A DNA stretch of 64,000 bases, from positions 1,760,958 through 1,824,957 of the forward strand of contig OY761611.1 of assembly GCA_963664875.1 (NCBI GenBank), written 5' to 3'. The notes under the pieces are model-generated. The model worked only from the letters and a program-made list of their open reading frames with translations, did not search any database and was not told the DNA's origin. Made by a program: the position numbers and the translations under genes. The first letter of the stretch is position 1. Each line of letters starts with the position of its first letter. The stretch is from Candidatus Kapaibacterium sp. Lineage in GTDB: Bacteria > Bacteroidota > Ignavibacteria > Kapaibacteriales > UBA2268. Below, in pieces: positions 47,045 to 64,000 of the stretch.

Positions 47045-47527
47045 TTGACACAACAAAAAAGCAAAAAATATATCAAAGGAGATTTGAAAATGACAATGAT
47101 TAAATTCGACCCGGTTAGACATTTTGAGAATATGACTCGCAAAATGCAACACATAGCCAACGAGGCTGAAAAAGGTTTTGTATTCGAAAAAGGTGGTTTC
47201 AATCCGAGAGTTGACATCACTGAATACGACAACAAAGTAGTGGTCTATGCGGAAGTGCCCGGTTTGGCAAAAGAAGACGTTAAAGTATCGGTAAACGAAG
47301 AAAGAATTTTGACTATCAAAGGCGAAAAAAAGAAACCAGAGCTTGCTGAAGGCGAATCGCTCATCCGCATGGAACGCTCTTTTGGTGAATTCTCCAGATC
47401 ATTTATGCTCCCTGAAGATATTGATTTGGAAAACATCAAGGCTTCTTTCAAACATGGTCTGTTAGAATTGACTTTGAGCAAAAAAGAACCCGAAGAGCCA
47501 AAAGAGATTAATATCACAATCGAATAG
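47045..47527 (+). CDS. Small heat-shock protein (Hsp20/alpha-crystallin family), copy 1
   Basis: The alpha-crystallin domain reads PRVDITEYDNKVVVYAEVPGLAKEDVKV...GLLELTLSKKEP. The likely true start is the ATG at about 47090 (MTMIKFDP), which has an AAGGAG SD. Confidence 0.9.
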   Translation: MTQQKSKKYIKGDLKMTMIKFDPVRHFENMTRKMQHIANEAEKGFVFEKGGFNPRVDITEYDNKVVVYAEVPGLAKEDVKVSVNEERILTIKGEKKKPELAEGESLIRMERSFGEFSRSFMLPEDIDLENIKASFKHGLLELTLSKKEPEEPKEINITIE

Positions 47528-47714
47528 TTTAAATAAGAGAGTCCGGTGTTTGACAGACAACCCCATAGCAAAGACATTAGACAGATGTAGCTCGTTTTCA
47601 TAGCACCAGTATATTAAAAGAAACAGAATGACAGTATATCGGCATCGGACTCTTCTTTAACAAAAAGTATTAAAGAAAATAAAAAAAAGCAAAAAATAAA
47701 AAGGAGATATAAAA

Positions 47715-48164
47715 ATGGCAGTAGTAAGATTTGATCCTTTCAGAGGATTTGAAAGAATAAATAAGAGAATGGGGCAATTTGTTGACGAAATGGAAAAAGG
47801 TTTTAGAGTAGAGTATGGATCATTTGCCCCCACGATTGACATAGTTGAAGACGAAAAAACTTTGAAGCTCTTCGCGGAGCTTCCCGGTATTCCGAAAGAG
47901 CAGGTCAAAATCACTGTAAACGAAGACAAAGTGCTTATAATCAAAGGCGAAAAGAAAAGATGCGAGGAAGAAACTGACGAATGCAAGGAAAAAGCTTATA
48001 TCAGAGCAGAAAGAAGTTTTGGTGAGTTTTCCCGCTCTTTCCAGCTACCGGAAAATATCAATACCGACTCAATCAATGCTAAATTCGAAAATGGTGTGCT
48101 AAGCATATCTTTGAGTAAAAAAGAGCCGGTAAAACCAAAAGAAGTTGAAGTAACGATAGACTAA
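47715..48164 (+). CDS. Small heat-shock protein (Hsp20 family), copy 2
   Basis: The sequence reads PTIDIVEDEKTLKLFAELPGIPKEQVKI...GVLSISLSKKEP. The SD is AAAGGAG. Confidence 0.9.
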   Translation: MAVVRFDPFRGFERINKRMGQFVDEMEKGFRVEYGSFAPTIDIVEDEKTLKLFAELPGIPKEQVKITVNEDKVLIIKGEKKRCEEETDECKEKAYIRAERSFGEFSRSFQLPENINTDSINAKFENGVLSISLSKKEPVKPKEVEVTID

Positions 48165-48287
48165 AATTGAATTGATTGTATTTTGTTCAGGTCTCGAACA
48201 ACAGCAAGGAATAAAGAATCTTAAGTTTTTTACCCAAAAACAAATTGACCAAATAGTAATGTTCAACAACCTAATCGGAGGTGTATT

Positions 48288-48740
48288 GTGACTTTAGTAA
48301 AATATGATCCGTTTACCGGTGTAGATGGCTTAATCCGCAGAATGGACAGATGGATGGATGGCTTTAACAGAAGAAGCATGGTGTTTAATACATCAGCATG
48401 GATGCCTAAAATTGACGTACACGAAGAGGCAGATAGATTTTGGATTTCTGCGGAACTACCCGGCATAGCAAAAGAAGACGTTAAGGTAAAAGTAAACGAC
48501 GACAATATGCTTATCATCTCCGGCGAAAAGAGAAGCGTATTTGAGGAAAATGATGAAAAAGATGATAAGCGTCTGATTCGCTCTGAAAGATCTTACGGCA
48601 GTTTCACGCGCTCATTCATTTTGCCTGACAATGTTGATAAAGACAGCATCAAAGCAAAATATGAAAACGGCGTGTTGAATATGGAAATATTGAAGAAAGA
48701 ACCGGAAAAACCAAGCGAAACAGAAATAACTATAGACTAA
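48288..48740 (+). CDS. Small heat-shock protein (Hsp20 family), copy 3
   Basis: The sequence reads PKIDVHEEADRFWISAELPGIAKEDVKV...GVLNMEILKKEP. The start codon is GTG, with an SD of GGAGGTG. Confidence 0.9.
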   Translation: MTLVKYDPFTGVDGLIRRMDRWMDGFNRRSMVFNTSAWMPKIDVHEEADRFWISAELPGIAKEDVKVKVNDDNMLIISGEKRSVFEENDEKDDKRLIRSERSYGSFTRSFILPDNVDKDSIKAKYENGVLNMEILKKEPEKPSETEITID

Positions 48741-51815: not shown

Positions 51816-52181
51816 CTAAGTTTCTTTGTTTCGAGACATATTCCCAAAAAACGCTAAAAAAGTTCCATATGATTGAACAATCATGCTTGGTGACATCAGT
51901 ATTTGGATAATATCGAAATCATTTGCACTATTTAGAAAAAAAAGATACAAAGAAATAAGAAGCAATATTTCCGATGCATACCTCATCATAATATATACTT
52001 TTTTTTCTTTAAAATTGAAAAACAATCTGTTAATTAAGACAATATTGCTAAACAATAATATTAAATGTGCTTCTGAGTTTGCATACTTATCAAAAATAAA
52101 TATACTATACAGTAAGAACAACTCTATACTTGCTAAAACAATGAAACCGGTCACCAATAGTGCAGTATTTCTTTTTTTCAT
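51816..52181 (-). CDS. Hypothetical small membrane protein (121 aa)
   Basis: About three hydrophobic helices are predicted. A minus-strand terminator follows about 55 nt downstream. The region is AT-rich, so confidence is low. Confidence 0.3.
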   Translation of the reverse strand: MKKRNTALLVTGFIVLASIELFLLYSIFIFDKYANSEAHLILLFSNIVLINRLFFNFKEKKVYIMMRYASEILLLISLYLFFLNSANDFDIIQILMSPSMIVQSYGTFLAFFGNMSRNKET

Positions 52182-52484: not shown

Positions 52485-52778
52485 ATAGAATACAGCATAG
52501 AGTGTAAGTTTTATGCTCTATTAGCTACTATTTACCTATACTACCTGCTAAAAGCTACCTGAGAAGCCTGACCGTCTAAGTGCTGGATGCCAAGGCTGTT
52601 AAATCTAAAGTTTTGCCTTTTAAGGAGTATTTGGAGTTAAATGTTTTTATTATTTATGACTATGCTGATAGTTTGTTTCAATTATAGTAATCAAAGGGCT
52701 CTGTTTATCATTGTCGAAGAACATGATATTACATAATCAGAAAAAGTTCTACAAATACAGTTCAGAATCAATAGACTA

Positions 52779-53040: not shown

Positions 53041-53940
53041 TTAATCCCACCAACCGAAAAGATATTTACCTGCTGCGGCAACTCCACAAACAACTGCATT
53101 GGTCACCACTACAGCAGAACTACCAGAGGCAGCTGCAGCACCTGGCAAAGCTCCGATTCCTCCTGTACAAACACCACCTGCAATTGCTCCAGCAGCATCA
53201 GCTAATACAGTTCCAACTGCACAAGCAGCAACAGCAGCTTCTGTTTTTCCAATCTTTTTAGAAACTACATTTTGTTCTTTTGCTCCTAACAACTTGCTTA
53301 CGTTAAATTCATAAGAATGTTTCACGATAGCAATAGTTTTAAGAGCCATAGTTTCTTCTTCATCCCATGTCTCTTGTAAAATCTTACTTTCTACTGCTTG
53401 AATTCGATTAGCAATACTTGCCAAAGTAAACATCTCCTCTCCTTCAATAATATTTCGTAATTCATCAAAAATGTAAACTACCATATTAGCATCTTTCTCA
53501 GAAGTACAGCCATATATGGTCTCTCTTAATGAGGATGTCAGAAAATAGCCTGTGTTTAGTTCGTTTACTGCTGTTTTAAATCCGTTAGATATTAGGAAAT
53601 CATCCACTTCTTGTTCAGATACGTTTAGGGACTGATTATTAAGAGCTCCAGTGATAATAGTCAACACTTTGCTATTAAAGTTGTCATCTTCATAGTTAGA
53701 AGTACTAGTAAACTCACCTGATTGGTAGTAAGGCAATAATTGCTGAAAAACTTCTTCCATAGCTTTATTATGTATTTCGCCTAAGTAATCATAGGGATTT
53801 ACTAACTGTACTTGGACACTATTTGTTATAGTATTGTTTGACATTGCAGGAACAACAGATTCATTGTCTTCTGTACAACTCATCAAACCAAAGATTGAAA
53901 GCGATAATGCCATTAAGGCAAGGATAATTTTTGTTTTCAT
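53041..53940 (-). CDS. Secreted lipoprotein with a C-terminal Gly/Ala-rich glycine-zipper tail (bacteriocin/microcin-like)
   Basis: The N-terminus MKTKIILALMALSLSIFGLMSC has a lipobox. The C-terminus is AVAACAVGTVLADAAGAIAGGVCTGGIGALPGAAAASGSSAVVVTNAVVCGVAAAGKYLFGWWD. Confidence 0.6.
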   Translation of the reverse strand: MKTKIILALMALSLSIFGLMSCTEDNESVVPAMSNNTITNSVQVQLVNPYDYLGEIHNKAMEEVFQQLLPYYQSGEFTSTSNYEDDNFNSKVLTIITGALNNQSLNVSEQEVDDFLISNGFKTAVNELNTGYFLTSSLRETIYGCTSEKDANMVVYIFDELRNIIEGEEMFTLASIANRIQAVESKILQETWDEEETMALKTIAIVKHSYEFNVSKLLGAKEQNVVSKKIGKTEAAVAACAVGTVLADAAGAIAGGVCTGGIGALPGAAAASGSSAVVVTNAVVCGVAAAGKYLFGWWD

Positions 53941-53975
53941 TTTGATATCTGTAATTAGTTTTTACATTAAGTAAT

Positions 53976-54102
53976 TGAATTACTATTGCTTTTAAGCGAA
54001 AAAGCAATAATTTACAGTGCATGATTTCGTGTAAGTCAAACATTTCGAAATCACGTGCGTTTTGTAGCCGATTACTCCCCAGTATCGGCTCTTTTTTTGC
54101 CG
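53976..54102 (+). repeat. Conserved upstream element, copy 1: three hairpins, the last being an intrinsic terminator on the plus strand
   Basis: Copy 1 is nearly identical to 55217-55344. The first hairpin is TATTGCTTTT...AAAAGCAATA. The second is TGATTTCG...CGAAATCA and contains the palindrome ATTTCGAAAT. The third is AGCCGATTACT-CCCC-AGTATCGGCT followed by T7. Confidence 0.7.
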
Positions 54103-54314
54103 TTTGTGTAATTTAGTTATAGTTTTTAGAACACTTTACTCCTGTTTCTTATTGAATATGATATTCCTATTTCGTAAAACTGATTTTTGAAGTTAAATGT
54201 TCCAAAATAGAACAACCATTTTGCAAAGAAAATTATTACAAGTATACTTTATAATACAAAATTAGCGAGTTAACTTTTATGTATTCATCCTATTACATAT
54301 TAGTATGCTATATT

Positions 54315-55181
54315 TTATTTTCCCCAGTTGCCTAAGTCAACTTCTCCCAACCAAACCTCAGCTATATCAGGCTCGAGTTTAACAAGCCCCATTTTAATTA
54401 ACACTTCAAGCCATGAACCAGGTAAAACAACTACACCTTTCAAGCTAATAAAACCATCAGGCATAAACTTGATATTCCCATTGCCAAACCAGAACAAACT
54501 CCCCAAAAACATTTGCATAGTCGGCTTAGTAAAGATTGGCAATTCACCTTCATAGTCCGGTTTACAGCCGGTTTGGACAAACCAAACATCTTTATCTTCA
54601 TCTATAAGATTATTCCAATATACTGCATTAGCAAGACTTAGTTCACAAGCATTAAGTAAGATACTTTTTTTCGAGGACAACAATCCAAAATCACTATTAA
54701 TTGCTTTTTTTATTTCAGTGATTTTAGAATCCATCTCAGCTATATCATTAACATTTGCAATTATATCTGCGATTTGTCTGATATAATTTTTCACTAAATC
54801 AGAAATATTCGCATTATTATAATAATCCTGTAATGAGATCGATTGTATCATTGTGTAATTTTCTACAATCCAATCGTTGAATTCTGTCGGAATTGAATTC
54901 ATATCTGAAGCTACAAATATGTTGCTCTTGTACATATTGCTAAAGCTCTGATAATCACATAATCCAATGAATTGATCTTTTAAACTAAAAAAATTATGCC
55001 AAGTTTGATTAAGCTGGTAAGAAACCTCAGTATTCAATATGCTAAGTTTTGACACATTTGAACTGCTAAATTCGCTTGAATTATCTGATGGCATTGTGTT
55101 AGAAGCTTGTTCCGTACAACTCATAAGACCAAAGATAGAAATCGATAATGCCATAATAGCAAGAATAATTTTTGTTTTCAT
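54315..55181 (-). CDS. Secreted lipoprotein paralog
   Basis: The N-terminus MKTKIILAIMALSISIFGLMSC matches the 53041..53940 gene at 19 of the first 22 residues. The rest of the protein has diverged. Confidence 0.6.
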   Translation of the reverse strand: MKTKIILAIMALSISIFGLMSCTEQASNTMPSDNSSEFSSSNVSKLSILNTEVSYQLNQTWHNFFSLKDQFIGLCDYQSFSNMYKSNIFVASDMNSIPTEFNDWIVENYTMIQSISLQDYYNNANISDLVKNYIRQIADIIANVNDIAEMDSKITEIKKAINSDFGLLSSKKSILLNACELSLANAVYWNNLIDEDKDVWFVQTGCKPDYEGELPIFTKPTMQMFLGSLFWFGNGNIKFMPDGFISLKGVVVLPGSWLEVLIKMGLVKLEPDIAEVWLGEVDLGNWGK

Positions 55182-55216
55182 ATTTTTAACTGTAATATGA
55201 TTCTACATTATTTTAT

Positions 55217-55344
55217 TGAATTCCTATTGCTTCTTTTCAAAAAAAGCAATATATTACAGTGCATGATTTCGTGTAAGTCAAACATTTCGAAATCACGTGC
55301 GTTTTGTAGCCGATTACTCCCCAGTATCGGCTCTTTTTTTGCCG
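55217..55344 (+). repeat. Conserved upstream element, copy 2
   Basis: Copy 2 is about 95% identical to 53976-54102 over roughly 125 bp. It includes the same hairpin and T-run terminator. Confidence 0.7.
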
Positions 55345-55455
55345 AAATTATTTTTTACTTTTTGTCAAGAAATATATCACCTATAAATCAATGAATAAAC
55401 TATTTTCGTCTGTTATTATAGTCAAATATCAACAGCACTAATTTAGCAATTTCTC

Positions 55456-55495
55456 AAAAAAAAAAAAAACGAAAATGCTATGTTTCTTTAGCATT
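55456..55495 (-). terminator. Rho-independent terminator (minus strand) about 200 bp beyond the esterase terminator
   Basis: The plus strand carries an A14 run followed by AATGCTA...TAGCATT. On the minus strand this is a hairpin followed by T14. Confidence 0.5.
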
Positions 55496-55733: not shown

Positions 55734-57596
55734 CTATTGCACTATTACTTTTACATTTTTTCCGTTGAGGATTAAATTGTAAACTCCGGCGGAAAGTGCT
55801 CTTAAATCAAGCTGTTTCCCGTCCGCTTTTACTGCAGAAGTAACATCATTACCTAAAATATCAACTACTTTATATGTACTTGGTAGCTCAGTATTGATTG
55901 TAATAAAGTCAGCTGTAGGATTAGGGAATACTGAGATTTCTTCTTCGTTTGTTTCTTCTACTGAAACATTAGGATCTAAGATAATATTATCTATAAGAGT
56001 CATACCGCCCATTGCTCCATAAACTGAGAATTTGAATTGAGCGTGTTCGGACATATATTTAGAATCAAGATCAATTCTTTCAGTTCTCCAGTTTTCCTCT
56101 GCCGGTTTTACATTGTAGATATAAGTCTGTTCAAATATATCTTTGAATGGCTCATCATAAGTCGCAAGCTCTTCTCTTGTTTTTCTGTATATCTCTTCGA
56201 AAGTTTTACCACCGTCTATTGAGATTTCTACTACAAGAGTATCAGAGTAAATATATTCTGTTCCCTGAATATTATAATGGAAGTAGTTATAAGCAACATC
56301 AAAAGATAAATATGGAGCCATACCATCAATATTAAAGAATGGAGAAATCAGCTCATCTTTGAAGCCTTCGTAGTTAAATACCATAAGTGTAGGATTGCTG
56401 TAAAATGCCATAGCATAGTTGTCTCCATCTTGGTAAGGTTGCCAAGTTTCTAGTTGAGGGGATTCTTCTAAAAACCAATCATTTTCTAATTCGTTACCCG
56501 GAGCAGGATTGAATACATAAGGCAATTTATGAGGTTCCTCTGTGTAATAAATTGTATGTACAGTTTCTTCCTCTTCTTCTTTTGCTACGCCATTTACTTC
56601 CAGTACTTTGAAAGAAATATCATTTAGTCCCGGCTCTAAAGCACCTGCTTCCACTTCGAGCGATTCAAAAACGTACTGTTCAGCTTCGCCTTCCCAAGTA
56701 TATTCGTATGAATTAGTACCATTAGAAACTTCAAATTTGCAAGAAGTGATAGAGTTGTCTCCGGCACCTCTAAATCTGATATTAAACTTAGGTGTTTCTT
56801 CCAAAGTGTTGTTCGGTGAATCTATATCCATGATTTCTACTATGTCGTTGCCCATATTGTCCCCGTTAAAAGCAACCTGTGCAACCGGGAACGCATGATA
56901 AACAATAGAGTGTCCCATATCAGGAATCACAAAGTGACGCATAATTGCATTGTATTTTTCTAAACTGTCAACTACCATCTGAATTGGTTCTAAATAAAAA
57001 ATATCATCAGCACCATTTGTAATAATCATAGGAACCTTTCTTGCATTTTCATAACGAATGCGTTCGAAAATGCCTAAATCAGCATATAAATTCATTGCAT
57101 CTTTCGGCCCTTGCACTGCAGGAGTATTTAGTATTAGAGTATGAAATTTTTCCGGGTACTGCAAACCATAGCACATAGCCGAGCGCGCACCAAGAGAAAA
57201 GCCTTCAAGAAATATTCTGTCTTCAGCTACATTGTAGTTTGCTTTAACATAGTCGATACACTTGTCAACTATAGTAATGTCTTCACGAGGCTCGTAGAAG
57301 TCTCTGTTTTGGTCATCGCCACCATCAGGAATAACATAAATATAGTTATTATACATTGGGTCTAATTCCGCAACAGATTTAGCAAAAGCTGCCATATTCG
57401 CAGAGTTGTCACCCAAACCATGTAGCATAATCATTACATCATAAGCTTTTGTACCATCGTAATCCAAAGGTACATAAAGCGAAACAGGTCTGTCTTCATC
57501 CAAATGAGGAAGTGTGATATTAATTAAGCCGGTTTCCTGCGAAAAAGCAGTGCCAAAGCAAATAAATAAAGCGAGTAGAGTAGATAAGTATTTCAA
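55734..57596 (-). CDS. T9SS-secreted alpha/beta-hydrolase (esterase/lipase or depolymerase-like) with a C-terminal sorting domain
   Basis: An HGLGDNS oxyanion-hole-like segment is present. The nucleophile elbow is GFSLGA (GxSxG). The C-terminus ...GVYNLILNGKNVKVIVQ is a T9SS C-terminal domain. The start codon is TTG, with a GGGAGA SD. Confidence 0.75.
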   Translation of the reverse strand: MKYLSTLLALFICFGTAFSQETGLINITLPHLDEDRPVSLYVPLDYDGTKAYDVMIMLHGLGDNSANMAAFAKSVAELDPMYNNYIYVIPDGGDDQNRDFYEPREDITIVDKCIDYVKANYNVAEDRIFLEGFSLGARSAMCYGLQYPEKFHTLILNTPAVQGPKDAMNLYADLGIFERIRYENARKVPMIITNGADDIFYLEPIQMVVDSLEKYNAIMRHFVIPDMGHSIVYHAFPVAQVAFNGDNMGNDIVEIMDIDSPNNTLEETPKFNIRFRGAGDNSITSCKFEVSNGTNSYEYTWEGEAEQYVFESLEVEAGALEPGLNDISFKVLEVNGVAKEEEEETVHTIYYTEEPHKLPYVFNPAPGNELENDWFLEESPQLETWQPYQDGDNYAMAFYSNPTLMVFNYEGFKDELISPFFNIDGMAPYLSFDVAYNYFHYNIQGTEYIYSDTLVVEISIDGGKTFEEIYRKTREELATYDEPFKDIFEQTYIYNVKPAEENWRTERIDLDSKYMSEHAQFKFSVYGAMGGMTLIDNIILDPNVSVEETNEEEISVFPNPTADFITINTELPSTYKVVDILGNDVTSAVKADGKQLDLRALSAGVYNLILNGKNVKVIVQ

Positions 57597-57637: not shown

Positions 57638-57666
57638 TATATGATTAGCACAAATATATGTAAAAC
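57638..57666 (-). promoter_or_regulatory. Promoter-like element upstream of the esterase gene, duplicated at 60462-60490
   Basis: On the minus strand it reads TTTTACATATATTTGTGCTAATCATATA. This contains a TAtaTTTG -7-like box of the FCB-group type. Confidence 0.4.
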
Positions 57667-57869: not shown

Positions 57870-60314
57870 TTACCTCCTATTAATATTAATTATTTTTGAA
57901 ATCTTTTTATTATTCATCTTAATTTCTAATATGTATTCTCCCATAGAAAGATTGTATGGTAACACAATCGTCGCTGCATCGGAAAACCACATATCTTGGT
58001 GCAATACTAAATTCCCGGTAATATCATACAATAAAACCGTTGCGTTACCTCTATAATCTGACATATTCCTAATATGAACATAATTGACAGCAGGATTTGG
58101 AAAAAGTTGGAATTCTGATTCTACACTACCTTCCATTTCCTCAATTACAGATAAAACATTACCAATATCTAATATAGATATGTTTTCTATTCTTCTAAAC
58201 GAATTATTATCTCCATTTGGAACCGTATTTGCAGAAAACAAATAAACAGATTTTTTGTCCTTAGACAGAATTGGATATATATAACTGTGTTTTAATTTTG
58301 GAATAGCCTTACTTAGATCAATATTTTGTATTATCTGTTCATTATCTACATCGAGTATCAACATGTTTTCTGTGTCAAAATTACAAACAATCATATTGGA
58401 AGACTGTGGTACAGATATTATACTAGCACTTTCGTTATCACTTGAGCCTAATTGGTTATAAAACAAACTCGAAAAACTATCTTCATTAATGTGCAACTTT
58501 ATACAAATGTCATAGTCATATGATAATATATACAACAAAGAATCATTGTCAGGTATATCATAAGAAGCAAACTGATTATATATCTCATTTGTCTGAAAAA
58601 AAACTCCACCCTTGAAAGGAATTACTTTTTCATCTATCAGTGAATACTTCGCAAATGAAAACAAATTATTATCATCATACTCTTTATCGATGTCTTTTTT
58701 TGCTGTCACCAGTATAAGCTCATAGTTATCGATTAATAGTAAGTCAGATATAACAGTATTGGTTGAATACTGTTGAACAACTTTATCTAATGATATATCA
58801 TAAATAATAATATCACCAGAATATGTTGTAAGAATAATATTTTCAGAGTTTTTGTAGAAGTGAATAGAGCTAATATCTTCGTCATATTGTATAGTCTGTT
58901 TCAAAGACATATCTGATGCATTTAATATCCTAATTGTATTATATATTGATAACTCTTCATCTCTTACCAACATAGCAACATATTGATCATCTATAGAAAT
59001 ATCAAACTTGCCTTCATTCATATTATCACAATAATAAAAATCTTCAATTATAGAAGTAGATGGATCATATTTACATACATAACTAGTATTATAAGAATAA
59101 TCATAGCATCTAGTACTGATGCACATATCATCAGATTTATTATAACGTTTTATATTGTTAACATTTCCTGGCAAAGTGAGTAATTTTGTCTTAGAGTCAG
59201 AATAGTCTGATAATAATAAAAATTGATCTGCTATTGAAATAACTCTGGAATTACCTATATAATTCCCTGTCGCCAATATAGGAGAACTATAGCTCAACAG
59301 AGGTTGCTCATATTTCGGAGATGATATATCATTCAAATCATAAGTACAAATCTTTGCATTATTCATAGCTGTAAAAGTATTATATTTTTTATTTATATTA
59401 CATTGATAGCTAGAATTAAAATCTAATGTTTGCCGATTTTTTAAGTTTGAATCTAAAACATTCAGACTATAACAACTATTATTAGCATTATAGCCTACAA
59501 ATATGATTTTATCTCCTGATTCAAACAATCTACCATAAGCTCCATAAACAATATTGCCAGTAATATCTCGCATACTATAATTAATAGTCTCATCATACTC
59601 ACCAGACTCGGTCAATGCAATCAAACGCCCATTAGTACTTTGATCATAAACTAAACAAAGCAATTTATTATTAAAGTAACAAACATCAAGAGGACCACCT
59701 TTGTACTTTTCAGTCACATTTACAACCCAATTTATTTGCATTGTTTCTATATTCATAGATAATATTTCTCCATTACCATAAATGCAGAAATAGTCTGTAT
59801 CCGAAATAGAAGTTCGAATTGGTATTTTCACATTATCCAATTTTACAATATCAGTAAATTCTTTATTTATGATATCATACTTTATAATGTAACTAGCTTT
59901 ATGTTTTCCCCACTCTCCTTGGTAGCCATTTATTAGAATATATCTATCATCTCTACTAATAATAGGGCACTGTGGAAAAAACCCAACAGTATCAATATTA
60001 TCATTCGTAATTACATCAGCTAACTCACAATCTGAATTTCTATATAGCATTAACATCCCTGATCCTTGTGGTTCTGATTCTACCTCAGAACCATTTGCAA
60101 TCAAAGAGAAAATTCCACTCTCACTGGTGTATATCCTATTTAGATGAACGAGATCCCCAGCTTGATATCTAAAATATTTTGTCCCGGCTAAAGAACTGCC
60201 TTGCAATTGAGTCGTGAAACTAGCCAATAAAATCGCCCAAATAAAAAACAATATATTAATTGACAACAACATTCTAAAAACTTTCATGAATCTCTCCAAA
60301 ATTTGGTGGTTCAA
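57870..60314 (-). CDS. T9SS-secreted hypothetical protein (814 aa, Asn/Tyr/Ile-rich, probably beta-propeller-like)
   Basis: The signal peptide MKVFRMLLSINILFFIWAILLA starts from an internal Met. The C-terminus ...GEYILEIKMNNKKISKIININRR is a T9SS C-terminal domain. Confidence 0.6.
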   Translation of the reverse strand: MNHQILERFMKVFRMLLSINILFFIWAILLASFTTQLQGSSLAGTKYFRYQAGDLVHLNRIYTSESGIFSLIANGSEVESEPQGSGMLMLYRNSDCELADVITNDNIDTVGFFPQCPIISRDDRYILINGYQGEWGKHKASYIIKYDIINKEFTDIVKLDNVKIPIRTSISDTDYFCIYGNGEILSMNIETMQINWVVNVTEKYKGGPLDVCYFNNKLLCLVYDQSTNGRLIALTESGEYDETINYSMRDITGNIVYGAYGRLFESGDKIIFVGYNANNSCYSLNVLDSNLKNRQTLDFNSSYQCNINKKYNTFTAMNNAKICTYDLNDISSPKYEQPLLSYSSPILATGNYIGNSRVISIADQFLLLSDYSDSKTKLLTLPGNVNNIKRYNKSDDMCISTRCYDYSYNTSYVCKYDPSTSIIEDFYYCDNMNEGKFDISIDDQYVAMLVRDEELSIYNTIRILNASDMSLKQTIQYDEDISSIHFYKNSENIILTTYSGDIIIYDISLDKVVQQYSTNTVISDLLLIDNYELILVTAKKDIDKEYDDNNLFSFAKYSLIDEKVIPFKGGVFFQTNEIYNQFASYDIPDNDSLLYILSYDYDICIKLHINEDSFSSLFYNQLGSSDNESASIISVPQSSNMIVCNFDTENMLILDVDNEQIIQNIDLSKAIPKLKHSYIYPILSKDKKSVYLFSANTVPNGDNNSFRRIENISILDIGNVLSVIEEMEGSVESEFQLFPNPAVNYVHIRNMSDYRGNATVLLYDITGNLVLHQDMWFSDAATIVLPYNLSMGEYILEIKMNNKKISKIININRR

Positions 60315-60490
60315 AAATATTTGGTCAGCTCCGCCTTCCTCAGTGTATTCGTAGCTGTTTATACTATTAGAAACTTCAAACTTACATGAATCGATAGAGT
60401 TCTCGACCGCACTTCTATATCTGATTGTAGATTTTGGTATTTCTTCTAATGTATTATTATATGATTAGCACAAATATATGTAAAAATTTT
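60309..60490 (-). pseudogene. Remnant of an esterase paralog: an internal gene fragment fused to a copy of the esterase upstream promoter-like element
   Basis: Positions 60309-60460 align at about 70-75% identity with 56676-56830, which is internal to the esterase gene. Positions 60462-60490 match 57638-57666, which is upstream of the esterase gene. The roughly 800 bp that separate these two segments in the intact gene are absent here. Confidence 0.5.
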
Positions 60491-62054: not shown

Positions 62055-62530
62055 CTACTCTACCGCGAAACCTATGCTACGCTTCTCGCTGCCATTGTCT
62101 ATCACAAGGTAGTAGATTCCGGTACTTATATCCTCAACATCTATCTGTTTACTGCCGAATGCCTCGGAGGCGTTGTAGCTGTAACTGCCGTCAAGTTCCT
62201 TAATTTTGCAGCCCATATAGTCATATATTTCAAATTTTACTTTCTCGCGGTAATTTGGATTCAAAAAGAAGTTTACCGTTACCATACGTTTCGCAGGATT
62301 TGGGTATAGTTTAGTGGGCAGTACCGTTGGGAAACTCTCCGTTTCTTCTGCTACTGAGGTAGTGTCCTTATAGATATTATAACTTACTGCTCCCTGATAG
62401 TGCCACTTGCCGTCTTTGCCCTTTATTCCATCGCCCCAATGAAAGAAAAACCACATACGCTTTTTGTCAGGGGAAATATATATTCGTCCCGGTGAAACAT
62501 ATTGTCTGACAGGATCGTTAGGTCTGTCTA
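62055..62530. repeat. Tandem direct repeat: the 3' ends of two adjacent T9SS cargo genes are near-identical (the second copy is 63521-64000)
   Basis: Identity is about 95% or higher over the first ~330 bp, including the C-terminal-domain coding region. It declines further upstream. Confidence 0.75.
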
Positions 62531-63520: not shown

Positions 63521-64000
63521 CTACTCTACCGCGAAACCTATGCTACGCTTCTCGCTGCCATTGTCTATCACAAGGTAGTAGATTCCGGTACTTATATCCT
63601 CAACATCTATCTGTTTACTGCCGAATGCCTCCGAGGCGTTGTAACTGTAACTGCCGTCAAGCTCCTTAATTTTGCAGCCCATATAGTCATATATTTCAAA
63701 TTTTACTTTCTCGCGGTAATTTGGATTCAAAAAGAAGTTTACCGTTACCATACGTTTCGCAGGATTTGGGTATAGCTTAGTAGGCAGTACCGTTGGGAAA
63801 CCCTCTGTTTCTTCAGCTACTGAGGTAGTGTCCTTATAGATATTATAACTTACTGCACCCTGATAATGCCACTTGCCGTCTTTGCCCTTTATTCCATCAC
63901 TCCAATAAAAGAAAAACCACAAGCACTTTTTATCCGGTGACATATATAGTCGCTCAGGGCCTTCGTATTCCCTTATTGGATCATTTGGTCTGTCAATCAA
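63521..64000 (-). CDS. T9SS-secreted hypothetical protein, a tandem paralog that is partial because it runs off the right edge
   Basis: The C-terminal ~110 aa are nearly identical to those of the 62055..63518 gene. Confidence 0.6.
   Translation of the reverse strand: MIDRPNDPIREYEGPERLYMSPDKKCLWFFFYWSDGIKGKDGKWHYQGAVSYNIYKDTTSVAEETEGFPTVLPTKLYPNPAKRMVTVNFFLNPNYREKVKFEIYDYMGCKIKELDGSYSYNASEAFGSKQIDVEDISTGIYYLVIDNGSEKRSIGFAVE

What the first reader, a model, noticed from the sequence alone, without database searches (positions are those of the whole stretch)
53976..54102. Conserved ~130 bp structured element present in two copies upstream of the paralogous lipoprotein genes, possibly a small RNA
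The two copies are about 95% identical over ~125 bp (the second is at 55217-55344), although the downstream coding regions diverge after ~25 codons. On the plus strand the element forms three hairpins. The first is TATTGCTTTT/AAAAGCAATA. The second is TGATTTCG/CGAAATCA, centred on the perfect palindrome ATTTCGAAAT. The third is a textbook intrinsic terminator, AGCCGATTACT-CCCC-AGTATCGGCT followed by T7. No plus-strand gene ends there. Either this is a divergently transcribed ~100 nt sRNA present in two copies, or it is a conserved promoter/operator region carrying an insulating terminator. Purifying conservation of non-coding sequence that exceeds the conservation of the adjacent coding sequence is notable.
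Basis: seen in the sequence. Interest (0 to 1): 0.5.

Follow-up and report, generated by a model that had tools for sequence, protein, structure and literature searches.

The report
Conserved leader module of variable lipoprotein genes
The two-copy element is real. It is the outer part of a roughly 230-bp control region that sits in front of every known member of a small, fast-changing surface-lipoprotein gene family in an uncultured Bacteroidota lineage, and it is probably a structured mRNA leader carrying a reverse-facing terminator rather than a free-standing small-RNA gene.

Summary
Coordinates 53976-54102 and 55217-55344 are 93% identical, with a perfect 91-nt run, and carry three inverted repeats plus a hairpin followed by T7 on the + strand.

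It is not a local duplication. The same block occurs in 7 copies across about 5 Kapaibacteria-like genomes. It always lies directly 5' of a lipoprotein gene with a near-identical signal peptide and an unrelated mature part. Between genomes the block is 83-88% identical, while the neighbouring HydE/HydG genes are only 79% identical.

Hairpin stems are almost invariant and loops are variable. Covariation is not significant on either strand. No Rfam family matches.

A Bacteroidota-type -7 promoter box sits at -262 to -269 from the ATG in all copies, and no perfect box lies closer. The element is therefore most likely part of a ~250-nt 5' UTR on the gene's (minus) strand. G·U wobbles and folding energy also favour that strand.

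The hairpin plus T7-9, read on the opposite strand, is kept in 7 of 7 copies. It looks like a real one-way terminator, for a cis-antisense RNA or as an insulator.

Homology between strains stops at the lipobox codon, so the module also anchors cassette exchange. Which strands are transcribed remains untested.

The parts
53875..54102 (-). Copy A of the conserved 5' module. In gene sense: CGGC, A7, hairpin H1, linker, hairpin H2, a long-range helix enclosing hairpin H3, the ATG (53940), the signal peptide and the lipobox Cys codon.
   Evidence: Seven-copy alignments. Conservation collapses on both sides. nhmmer finds it only in front of family genes.
54066..54098 (+). H1 read on the + strand: AGCCGATTACT-CCCC-AGTATCGGCT, then C, then T7. 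This is an intrinsic-terminator-like hairpin. On the - strand the same hairpin is preceded by A7.
   Evidence: Stem invariant in 7 of 7 copies, loop variable, U-tract 7-9 in all copies, dG -9.0 to -10.6 kcal/mol.
54099..54102 (.). GCCG (CGGC in gene sense), a third arm complementary to the H1 stem. It marks the distal edge of conservation.
   Evidence: Present in all 7 copies at the same place relative to the A-run. Its role is unexplained.
54020..54055 (-). Hairpin H2: a 10-bp stem, CGUGAUUUCG/CGAAAUCAUG in gene sense with a G·U pair, and a 16-17-nt hypervariable loop.
   Evidence: The loop is a substitution hot spot between near-identical strains.
53984..54009 (-). Hairpin H3: TATTGCTTTT / AAAAGCAATA with a variable loop.
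   Evidence: In 5 of 7 copies the stem holds a U·G pair on the gene strand, which is C·A on the + strand.
54010..54018 (-). 5' half of a predicted long-range helix (ACUGUAAAU in gene sense).
   Evidence: alifold helix, columns 100-107 with 165-172.
53949..53956 (-). 3' half of the long-range helix (AAUUACAG in gene sense), 9 nt upstream of the ATG.
53875..53940 (-). Signal peptide and lipobox codons of lipoprotein A (MKTKIILALMALSLSIFGLMSC), the proximal part of the conserved module.
   Evidence: Codons 11-14 show no synonymous change in 7 copies.
54202..54209 (-). Near-consensus -7 promoter box TATTTTGG at -269 from the ATG of gene A. This is the positional equivalent of the perfect TATATTTG seen in four other copies.
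54257..54264 (-). Perfect TAnnTTTG box (TAATTTTG) at -324 from the ATG of gene A.
55116..55344 (-). Copy B of the conserved 5' module (ATG at 55181).
55308..55340 (+). Copy B H1 hairpin plus T7, terminator-like on the + strand.
55262..55297 (-). Copy B hairpin H2.
55225..55251 (-). Copy B hairpin H3.
55438..55445 (-). Near-consensus -7 box TAAATTAG at -264 from the ATG of gene B.

Best explanation
The element is the distal part of a roughly 230-bp conserved 5' module that belongs to the lipoprotein genes. It is not an independent gene.

Shown:
- The module precedes every known member of a small lipoprotein family in Kapaibacteria-like Bacteroidota. There are 7 copies in about 5 genomes.
- It is more conserved than neighbouring enzyme genes.
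- It has invariant stems and variable loops.
- It ends at the lipobox codon, beyond which the coding cassette is swapped between strains.

Inferred:
- The mRNA starts at a Bacteroidota-type promoter (TAnnTTTG box) about 265 nt upstream of the ATG. H1, H2 and the helix enclosing H3 would then be transcribed on the gene's strand as a long structured 5' UTR. That UTR would set mRNA stability or translation.
- On the opposite strand, H1 plus U7-9 acts as a one-way intrinsic terminator. It most probably ends a cis-antisense transcript that starts near the gene's 5' end and is complementary to the leader. This would resemble the DonS-type antisense RNAs of Bacteroides. Alternatively it stops stray antisense transcription from reaching the promoter.
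- Because the module is shared, it also serves as the homology block at which cassettes are exchanged and paralogues are homogenised.
For: Distribution:
- Seven copies, always directly 5' of a family gene and in the same orientation.
- No copy turned up in JGI metagenome, viral, plasmid or phage collections.

Selection:
- Between genomes the block is 83-88% identical, against 78.9% for HydE/HydG and 75.7% for the PPIase genes.
- 13 of 86 paired columns vary against 39 of 76 unpaired columns, Fisher p = 8e-7.

Gene-strand transcription:
- TAnnTTTG is enriched in the window, 129 sites against 85 +/- 9 expected.
- That box lies within about 5-195 nt of the called starts of other genes in the window, mostly 45-165 nt.
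- In all 7 copies a box lies at -262 to -269. Four are perfect and three have one mismatch. No perfect box lies between it and the ATG.
- The consensus fold is -35.5 kcal/mol on the gene strand against -28.8 on the other strand.
- Four stem positions in the main helices carry G·U on the gene strand where the other strand has A·C. One position shows the reverse.

Antisense terminator:
- H1 stem invariant, dG -9.0 to -10.6 kcal/mol, U7-U9 in 7 of 7 copies.
- Seven consecutive invariant unpaired columns, when 51% of unpaired columns vary, gives about 0.007 by chance (numbers).

Cassette anchor:
- L042 against the window is 94% identical up to +66 and then unrelated.
- L041 against L002 is 89% identical up to +72 and then unrelated.
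- A 91-nt perfect conversion tract links copies A and B.
Against: - There are no transcript data, so neither TSS is known.
- Covariation is not significant on either strand (83 of 500 and 153 of 500 shuffles reach the observed value). RNA structure is therefore not proven. Invariant inverted repeats could also be protein-binding DNA sites.
- The -7 boxes of both window copies carry a mismatch.
- No conserved canonical promoter was found for the proposed antisense RNA. Only near-boxes exist, at +15 and -16.
- On the gene strand the A-tract and the extra CGGC arm have no obvious role.
- The wobble tally is weak evidence, roughly p = 0.1.
- Only about 4-5 independent lineages are available.
Confidence: 0.5

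Rival explanations
1. A free-standing plus-strand small RNA gene of about 85-140 nt (H3', H2' and the terminator H1') that acts in trans. Each copy would merely be parked next to a lipoprotein gene.
For: - Terminator-like hairpin plus U7-9 on the + strand in 7 of 7 copies, with conservation ending 4-7 nt after the T-tract as at the end of an RNA gene.
- The + strand folds better than shuffles, z = -3.6.
- Near-consensus -7 boxes occur on that strand at -16 (TAGTTTTT in copy A and L041, TAGATTTT in L042) and at +15.
- About half of Bacteroides cis-antisense RNAs lack the canonical promoter (PMC7366714).
Against: - It is never found away from a family gene.
- Conservation runs on through the ATG and signal peptide.
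- The candidate promoters are not conserved across copies.
- Consensus stems carry A·C mismatches on this strand where the other strand has G·U, and the consensus energy is weaker.
- The unpaired linker, where a seed would be expected, is variable.
Confidence: 0.2
2. A DNA-level control region. The inverted repeats would be operator sites for regulators around a non-canonical promoter, for example one read by an ECF sigma factor. H1 plus the T-tract would be only an insulating terminator.
For: - Stem sequences are invariant with essentially no compensatory change, while spacers vary. That is the pattern expected of dimer-binding half-sites.
- ATTTCGAAAT and CACGTG are perfect palindromes.
- Both window copies lack a perfect canonical -7 box at the conserved position.
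Against: - Four different, partly nested inverted repeats would need several different regulators.
- The H2 half-sites are 16-17 bp apart, with variable spacing.
- No sigma-70-like, ECF-like or TAnnTTTG motif is conserved between H3 and the ATG (inspection).
- The wobble asymmetry would be unexpected for double-stranded DNA sites.
Confidence: 0.15
3. A passive homology block. The 5' region would be kept similar only by gene conversion and horizontal exchange of cassettes, with the hairpins having no regulatory role.
For: - A 91-nt perfect conversion tract between copies A and B.
- Mosaic identity steps inside the module between strains. Copy B against L042 is 98% identical from -320 to -105 and 84% from -101 to +66.
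- Homology ends at the lipobox codon.
- Mycoplasma vsp/vpma families give a precedent for a shared 5' UTR plus signal peptide used in recombination (PMC5634654).
Against: - Conversion alone does not explain why stems are invariant while loops and linkers differ in the same copies.
- It does not explain why a T/A-tract of at least 7 survives in every lineage.
- It does not explain why the block is more conserved than HydE/HydG between genomes.
- No recombinase gene lies within 6-10 kb (the flank fetched) of any copy.
Confidence: 0.1

Closest known systems
DonS-like PUL-associated cis-antisense sRNAs of Bacteroides
   Same: DonS-type RNAs are 78-128 nt, divergently encoded to and overlapping the 5' end of an outer-membrane or surface-protein gene, occur as a multi-copy family, and repress the adjacent gene (PMC7366714). 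Here the terminator faces away from the gene and lies 135-165 nt upstream of the ATG, which would give an RNA of similar size and geometry.
   Different: The target here is an orphan lipoprotein, not a susC homologue or PUL. No conserved promoter or transcript has been shown. No sequence relationship could be tested, because Rfam returned no match.
Shared 5' UTR plus signal-peptide modules of variable lipoprotein families (Mycoplasma bovis Vsp, M. agalactiae Vpma)
   Same: [quoted passage not shown]
   Different: Vsp and Vpma switching uses an adjacent Xer1 recombinase, a recombination site in the 5' UTR and a single promoter for a gene cluster. Here no recombinase is nearby, each copy has its own promoter box, copies are dispersed, and the module is a multi-hairpin with a reverse-facing terminator.
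Long structured 5' UTR leaders in Bacteroidota
   Same: In B. thetaiotaomicron 13.5% of mRNAs have 5' UTRs longer than 100 nt, thought to host cis-regulatory elements or sRNA and protein binding sites (PMC7366714). Here the inferred UTR is about 250 nt with conserved hairpins.
   Different: No ligand-pocket-like conserved internal loops, no sense-strand terminator or start-codon sequestering helix, no Rfam family and no covariation support.
Sense/antisense stem-loop control regions (hok/sok, CopA/CopT, RNAI/RNAII). Recalled from general knowledge, not tested here.
   Same: Mirror-image hairpins on both strands, conserved stems with variable loops, and an antisense RNA ending in its own terminator inside the target's leader.
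   Different: Those systems control plasmid replication or small toxins. Here no antisense transcript has been shown. The small hydrophobic antisense ORF is not conserved.

Membership tests
Any Rfam 15 family | Match to a covariance model at or near the gathering score | tested here: not met
   No gathering-level hit in the window or in 5 related loci. With E up to 10 there were only chance-level miRNA and MicA hits, none of them over the hairpins H1 or H2.
Intrinsic (Rho-independent) terminator, + strand | Stable G+C-rich hairpin immediately followed by a U-tract | tested here: met
   9-10 bp stem, dG -9.0 to -10.6 kcal/mol, U7-U9 zero or one nt after the stem in 7 of 7 copies.
Intrinsic (Rho-independent) terminator, + strand | Lies at the 3' end of a transcription unit on that strand | tested here: inconclusive
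   No + strand gene ends there. The antisense ORF is not conserved. No conserved + strand promoter was found.
Intrinsic (Rho-independent) terminator, + strand | Transcripts actually end at the U-tract | not testable with these tools
   No transcript data are available.
DonS-like cis-antisense sRNA | Encoded divergently to and overlapping the 5' region of the regulated gene | tested here: inconclusive
   The terminator's orientation and position fit, but the 5' end and promoter are unknown.
DonS-like cis-antisense sRNA | Target is a susC homologue of a PUL | tested here: not met
   The downstream genes are orphan lipoproteins with no Pfam or NCBIfam family. Pfam hits in the flanks list no SusC- or SusD-type family.
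Cis-regulatory RNA leader or riboswitch-like element | Transcribed as part of the 5' UTR of the regulated gene | tested here: inconclusive
   A positionally conserved TAnnTTTG box lies at -262 to -269 and none lies closer. This is inferred from sequence only.
Cis-regulatory RNA leader or riboswitch-like element | Secondary structure supported by covariation | tested here: inconclusive
   97.7% of cells are paired, but only one pair changed on both sides. 83 of 500 shuffles reach the observed value. With 7 sequences there is too little variation.
Cis-regulatory RNA leader or riboswitch-like element | Expression platform on the gene strand (terminator or start-site sequestering helix) | tested here: not met
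   No hairpin followed by a U-run on the gene strand. The long-range helix ends 9 nt before the ATG.
Vsp/Vpma-type variable lipoprotein system | Conserved 5' UTR and signal peptide in front of divergent mature parts | tested here: met
Vsp/Vpma-type variable lipoprotein system | Adjacent site-specific recombinase and promoter switching within a gene cluster | tested here: not met
   No recombinase Pfam hit within 6-10 kb (the flank fetched) of any copy. Copies are dispersed and each has its own promoter box.
Invertible promoter (inverton) | Inverted repeats flanking a promoter, with both orientations seen among genomes | tested here: not met
   T-run and A-run inverted repeats exist, but all 7 copies are collinear and no loop or segment appears as a reverse complement in another copy.
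Type I toxin-antitoxin locus | Conserved small hydrophobic toxin ORF opposite an antisense RNA | tested here: not met
   An antisense frame is open and hydrophobic, but its start codon is not conserved and it is truncated in L041.

The most novel reading that the evidence does not exclude
The module could be a two-strand RNA switch. A long mRNA leader and a terminator-ended antisense RNA would be made from the same hairpins. The hypervariable H2 and H1 loops would then act as copy-specific recognition (kissing) loops. The switch would gate expression of swappable surface-lipoprotein cassettes. Some of those cassettes resemble toxin/immunity pairs, with a Gly/Ala-rich hydrophobic C-terminus followed by a small membrane protein. 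It would be a portable 'expression and secretion adaptor' for cassette exchange in an uncultured Bacteroidota lineage.
Probability: 0.2. Interest if true: 0.65.

Novelty: new member of a known kind. Interest (0 to 1): 0.42.

Why it matters
If the reading is right, this is an undescribed, strongly selected non-coding module in a lineage with no cultured model. It would couple regulation and secretion signals to rapidly exchanged surface-protein cassettes. It also gives a concrete, easily tested case of a terminator embedded backwards in a conserved mRNA leader. Finally, it could act as a marker for finding hypervariable surface or antagonism loci in Kapaibacteria metagenomes. Its known range is narrow, at about five genomes, and the class of mechanism (leader or antisense control, shared 5' modules) is familiar. 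The general impact is therefore moderate.

Tried and rejected
- **Recent local duplication.** Rejected, because the block is present in other genomes with unrelated flanks.
- **Known RNA family.** None found.
- **Mobile element, plasmid or phage origin.** No match. The JGI metagenome and viral pattern scans gave only chance hits.
- **More copies in the window or fetched loci.** None found with an nhmmer profile run with filters off.
- **Antisense small hydrophobic protein served by the terminator.** The frame is open, but the start codon is not conserved and the ORF is truncated in L041.
- **Long-range pairing between H1 and the unusually conserved codons +21 to +44.** It looked striking, with 20 bp in L041, but shuffled segments pair equally well.
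- **Invertible promoter bounded by the T-run and A-run or other long-range inverted repeats.** All copies are collinear and the repeats are low-complexity.
- **Sigma-70-like, ECF-like or canonical promoter between H3 and the ATG, or just upstream of CGGC.** No conserved motif was found.
- **Xer/dif-like core sites at H1 or H3.** The conversion and recombination breakpoints do not fall in their spacers, and there is no recombinase nearby.
- **Function of the lipoproteins.** No Pfam, NCBIfam or PDB relatives. The AlphaFold model had pLDDT 50 and was not used for fold search.
- **Signal-peptide-only protein search to find more family members.** It returned nothing.

Full report
**Observation**

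The region was read directly. Lipoprotein genes A (53041-53940) and B (54315-55181) lie on the minus strand. Upstream of each, at higher coordinates, lies the described element.

A perfect 91-nt run covers 54012-54102 = 55254-55344. Identity is about 80% from hairpin 3 through the ATG into the signal-peptide codons. It disappears distal to GCCG at 54102.

The three + strand hairpins exist. Two minor corrections apply. The palindrome ATTTCGAAAT overlaps the 3' arm of hairpin 2 rather than marking its centre. The terminator stem has a one-base bulge. Both strands fold better than shuffles, with z = -3.6 and -4.9. Rfam has no match at gathering level, and only chance-level hits up to E = 10.

**Where else it occurs**

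The window comes from an ENA long-read metagenome contig of 1.03 Mb. Lipoprotein A has a single distant homologue among 5.8 billion proteins, at 30% identity. That homologue's locus, L002, is syntenic, with HydE/HydG next door. It carries the same upstream block almost unchanged.

An exact-pattern scan of one genome per species found the block in two genomes. One is Candidatus Kapaibacterium sp. (L006, which is the same place as L002). The other is an unnamed MAG (L005). A third hit was a chance match. The JGI metagenome and viral scans returned only chance matches.

A profile search with four family proteins added three more genes, P0004 to P0006. Each has the block in front of it. In total there are 7 copies in about 5 genomes. 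Every copy lies directly 5' of a gene whose product begins MKTKIILAIMALSLSIFGLMSC(T/D/G)E. The mature parts are only 24-32% identical or unrelated. An nhmmer profile of the 7 copies finds nothing else in the window or in the fetched loci. Plasmid and phage collections hold nothing similar.

**Extent and conservation**

In the 7-copy alignments the conserved block runs in this order, in gene sense: CGGC, A7-9, H1, a variable linker, H2, a long-range helix enclosing H3, the ATG, the signal peptide and the lipobox. That is about 230 nt, and conservation collapses on both sides.

Between the window and L002 the block is 83-88% identical. HydE/HydG are 78.9% identical and the PPIase genes 75.7%. 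Apart from a 46-nt remnant of a secretion-domain coding sequence at 52574-52619, no other intergenic DNA aligns. Within the block, 13 of 86 paired columns vary against 39 of 76 unpaired columns, Fisher p = 8e-7. Stems are constrained while loops and linkers drift.

**Cassette behaviour**

A strain relative, L042, is 94% identical to the window from the esterase gene to window position 55116. That position is the lipobox Cys codon, +66. Homology then stops and resumes at 53095. L041 and L002 are 89% identical up to +72 and again after the cassette.

Mismatch maps show mosaic steps inside the module:
- Copy B against L042 is 98% identical from -320 to -105 and 84% from the H2 loop to +66.
- The H2 loop is a hot spot in both strain pairs.
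- Copies A and B share a perfect tract from -162 to -72.

The module is therefore a recombination and conversion substrate. It is also the left anchor of a swappable coding cassette. The HydE/HydG baseline still shows excess conservation.

**Which strand**

1. *Promoters.* The Bacteroidota -7 box TAnnTTTG (consensus as summarised in PMC7366714) is enriched in the window, at 129 sites against 85 +/- 9 expected. It lies within about 5-195 nt of the called starts of other genes in the window, mostly 45-165 nt.
   - In all 7 copies a box lies at -262 to -269 on the gene strand. It is a perfect TATATTTG in four copies and carries one mismatch in copy A, copy B and L042.
   - No perfect box lies between it and the ATG. 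The mRNA therefore probably carries a ~250-nt leader containing the element.
   - For comparison, the median 5' UTR in B. thetaiotaomicron is 32 nt, and 13.5% exceed 100 nt (PMC7366714).
   - On the opposite strand only near-boxes exist, at +15 and -16, and they are not conserved across copies.
2. *Pairing.* The consensus fold is -35.5 kcal/mol on the gene strand against -28.8 on the other. Four stem positions in the main helices are G·U on the gene strand and A·C on the other. One position shows the opposite. This is suggestive, at roughly p = 0.1.
3. *Covariation.* It is not significant on either strand, with 83 of 500 and 153 of 500 shuffles reaching the observed value. RNA structure is plausible but unproven.
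4. *The T-tract.* Against a purely gene-strand reading, H1 is followed on the + strand by U7-U9 in every copy. Its stability is -9.0 to -10.6 kcal/mol. The tract is invariant over seven columns although half of the unpaired columns vary, which is about 0.007 by chance. On the gene strand an A-tract before a hairpin has no known role. This genome uses ordinary hairpin-plus-T terminators at gene ends.

**Most likely mechanism**

The simplest account that uses all the features has three parts:
- The block is a cis-acting leader module of the lipoprotein genes, transcribed on the gene strand.
- Its distal hairpin also acts on the other strand as a one-way terminator. That terminator ends either a cis-antisense RNA complementary to the leader or stray antisense transcription. 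The first option has the same geometry as the 78-128-nt DonS-type RNAs of Bacteroides (PMC7366714).
- The shared module also serves as the homology anchor for cassette exchange. The precedent is the shared 5' UTR plus signal peptide of Mycoplasma Vsp/Vpma (PMC5634654), although that system works by a different, recombinase-driven mechanism.

I put about 0.5 on this composite. The rivals are a free-standing trans-acting + strand sRNA (0.2), a DNA-level operator or promoter with an insulating terminator (0.15), and a passive homology block (0.1).

**Checked and dropped**

- An antisense hydrophobic ORF.
- Pairing between H1 and conserved codons +21 to +44, which is no better than shuffles.
- An inverton.
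- Xer-like sites.
- Any protein family or fold for the lipoproteins.

**Verdict**

This is a real, selected, lineage-restricted non-coding module that is absent from Rfam. It is a new example of known kinds of element, namely a structured leader, cis-antisense control, and the shared 5' module of a variable lipoprotein family. Its unusual feature is a backwards terminator at its outer edge. Strand-specific transcript mapping would settle the mechanism.

Noticed in passing
window 53041-55181 compared with L042:2943-5641 and with L002 and L041: The coding cassette downstream of the lipobox codon is replaced between strains that are otherwise 89-94% identical. L042 has a 211-aa lipoprotein plus a redoxin gene where the window has lipoprotein B, a second module and lipoprotein A.
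   Followed up: partly
window 51816-52181; L040:6976-7344; L002:11047-11412; L005:6909-7325: A-type lipoproteins have a Gly/Ala-rich hydrophobic C-terminus and are followed by a small 121-138-aa multi-pass membrane protein. That gene is absent from L042 together with the A-type gene. The arrangement is reminiscent of toxin/immunity pairs, but no family match was found.
   Followed up: partly
window 55456-55469 (A14 on the + strand, T14 at -288 to -275 in gene sense); the same tract occurs in L002 and L042: A long homopolymer lies just 5' of the putative -7 box. It is T14 in three copies, T9 in L005, interrupted in L040 and L041, and absent in copy A. It is a candidate slipped-strand tract, or an assembly-sensitive site.
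   Followed up: no
window 52574-52619: A 46-nt stretch 85% identical to L002:11469-11514 and L041:6270-6315. It translates as part of a type IX secretion C-terminal sorting domain (GKTLDLSGLASGTY...), so it is apparently a gene remnant in the window.
   Followed up: partly
window 53834-53974 and 55039-55200 (+ strand): An open antisense frame runs across the signal-peptide codons and the ATG and encodes a hydrophobic tail (...ARIIFVFILISVISFYIK). It is open in most copies, but the start codon is not conserved and it is truncated in L041.
   Followed up: yes
L005:5060-5295: A G+C-richer stretch holding two short hairpins, ending in GCTCTTTTTTTT on the + strand. No gene lies upstream on that strand and there is no Rfam match. 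It may be another non-coding RNA.
   Followed up: no
window 57651-57658 and 60471-60478 (- strand): Two neighbouring type IX secretion cargo genes (55734-57596 and 57870-60314) share an identical promoter-like string, TTTTACATATATTTGTGCTAATCATAT. The window also holds tandem paralogues with a 300-nt stretch 97% identical (62055-62354 and 63521-63820) and three tandem HSP20 genes (47045-48740).
   Followed up: no
window 53898-53912 (codons 11-14 of lipoprotein A) and the same codons in all 7 copies: The string GGCATTATCGCTTTC shows no synonymous change in 6 of 7 copies. Copy B has one non-synonymous C-to-A change (Leu to Ile) and still no synonymous change. It includes a rare TCG codon. A nearby Leu codon, by contrast, uses four different codons. 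This nucleotide-level constraint is unexplained.
   Followed up: partly
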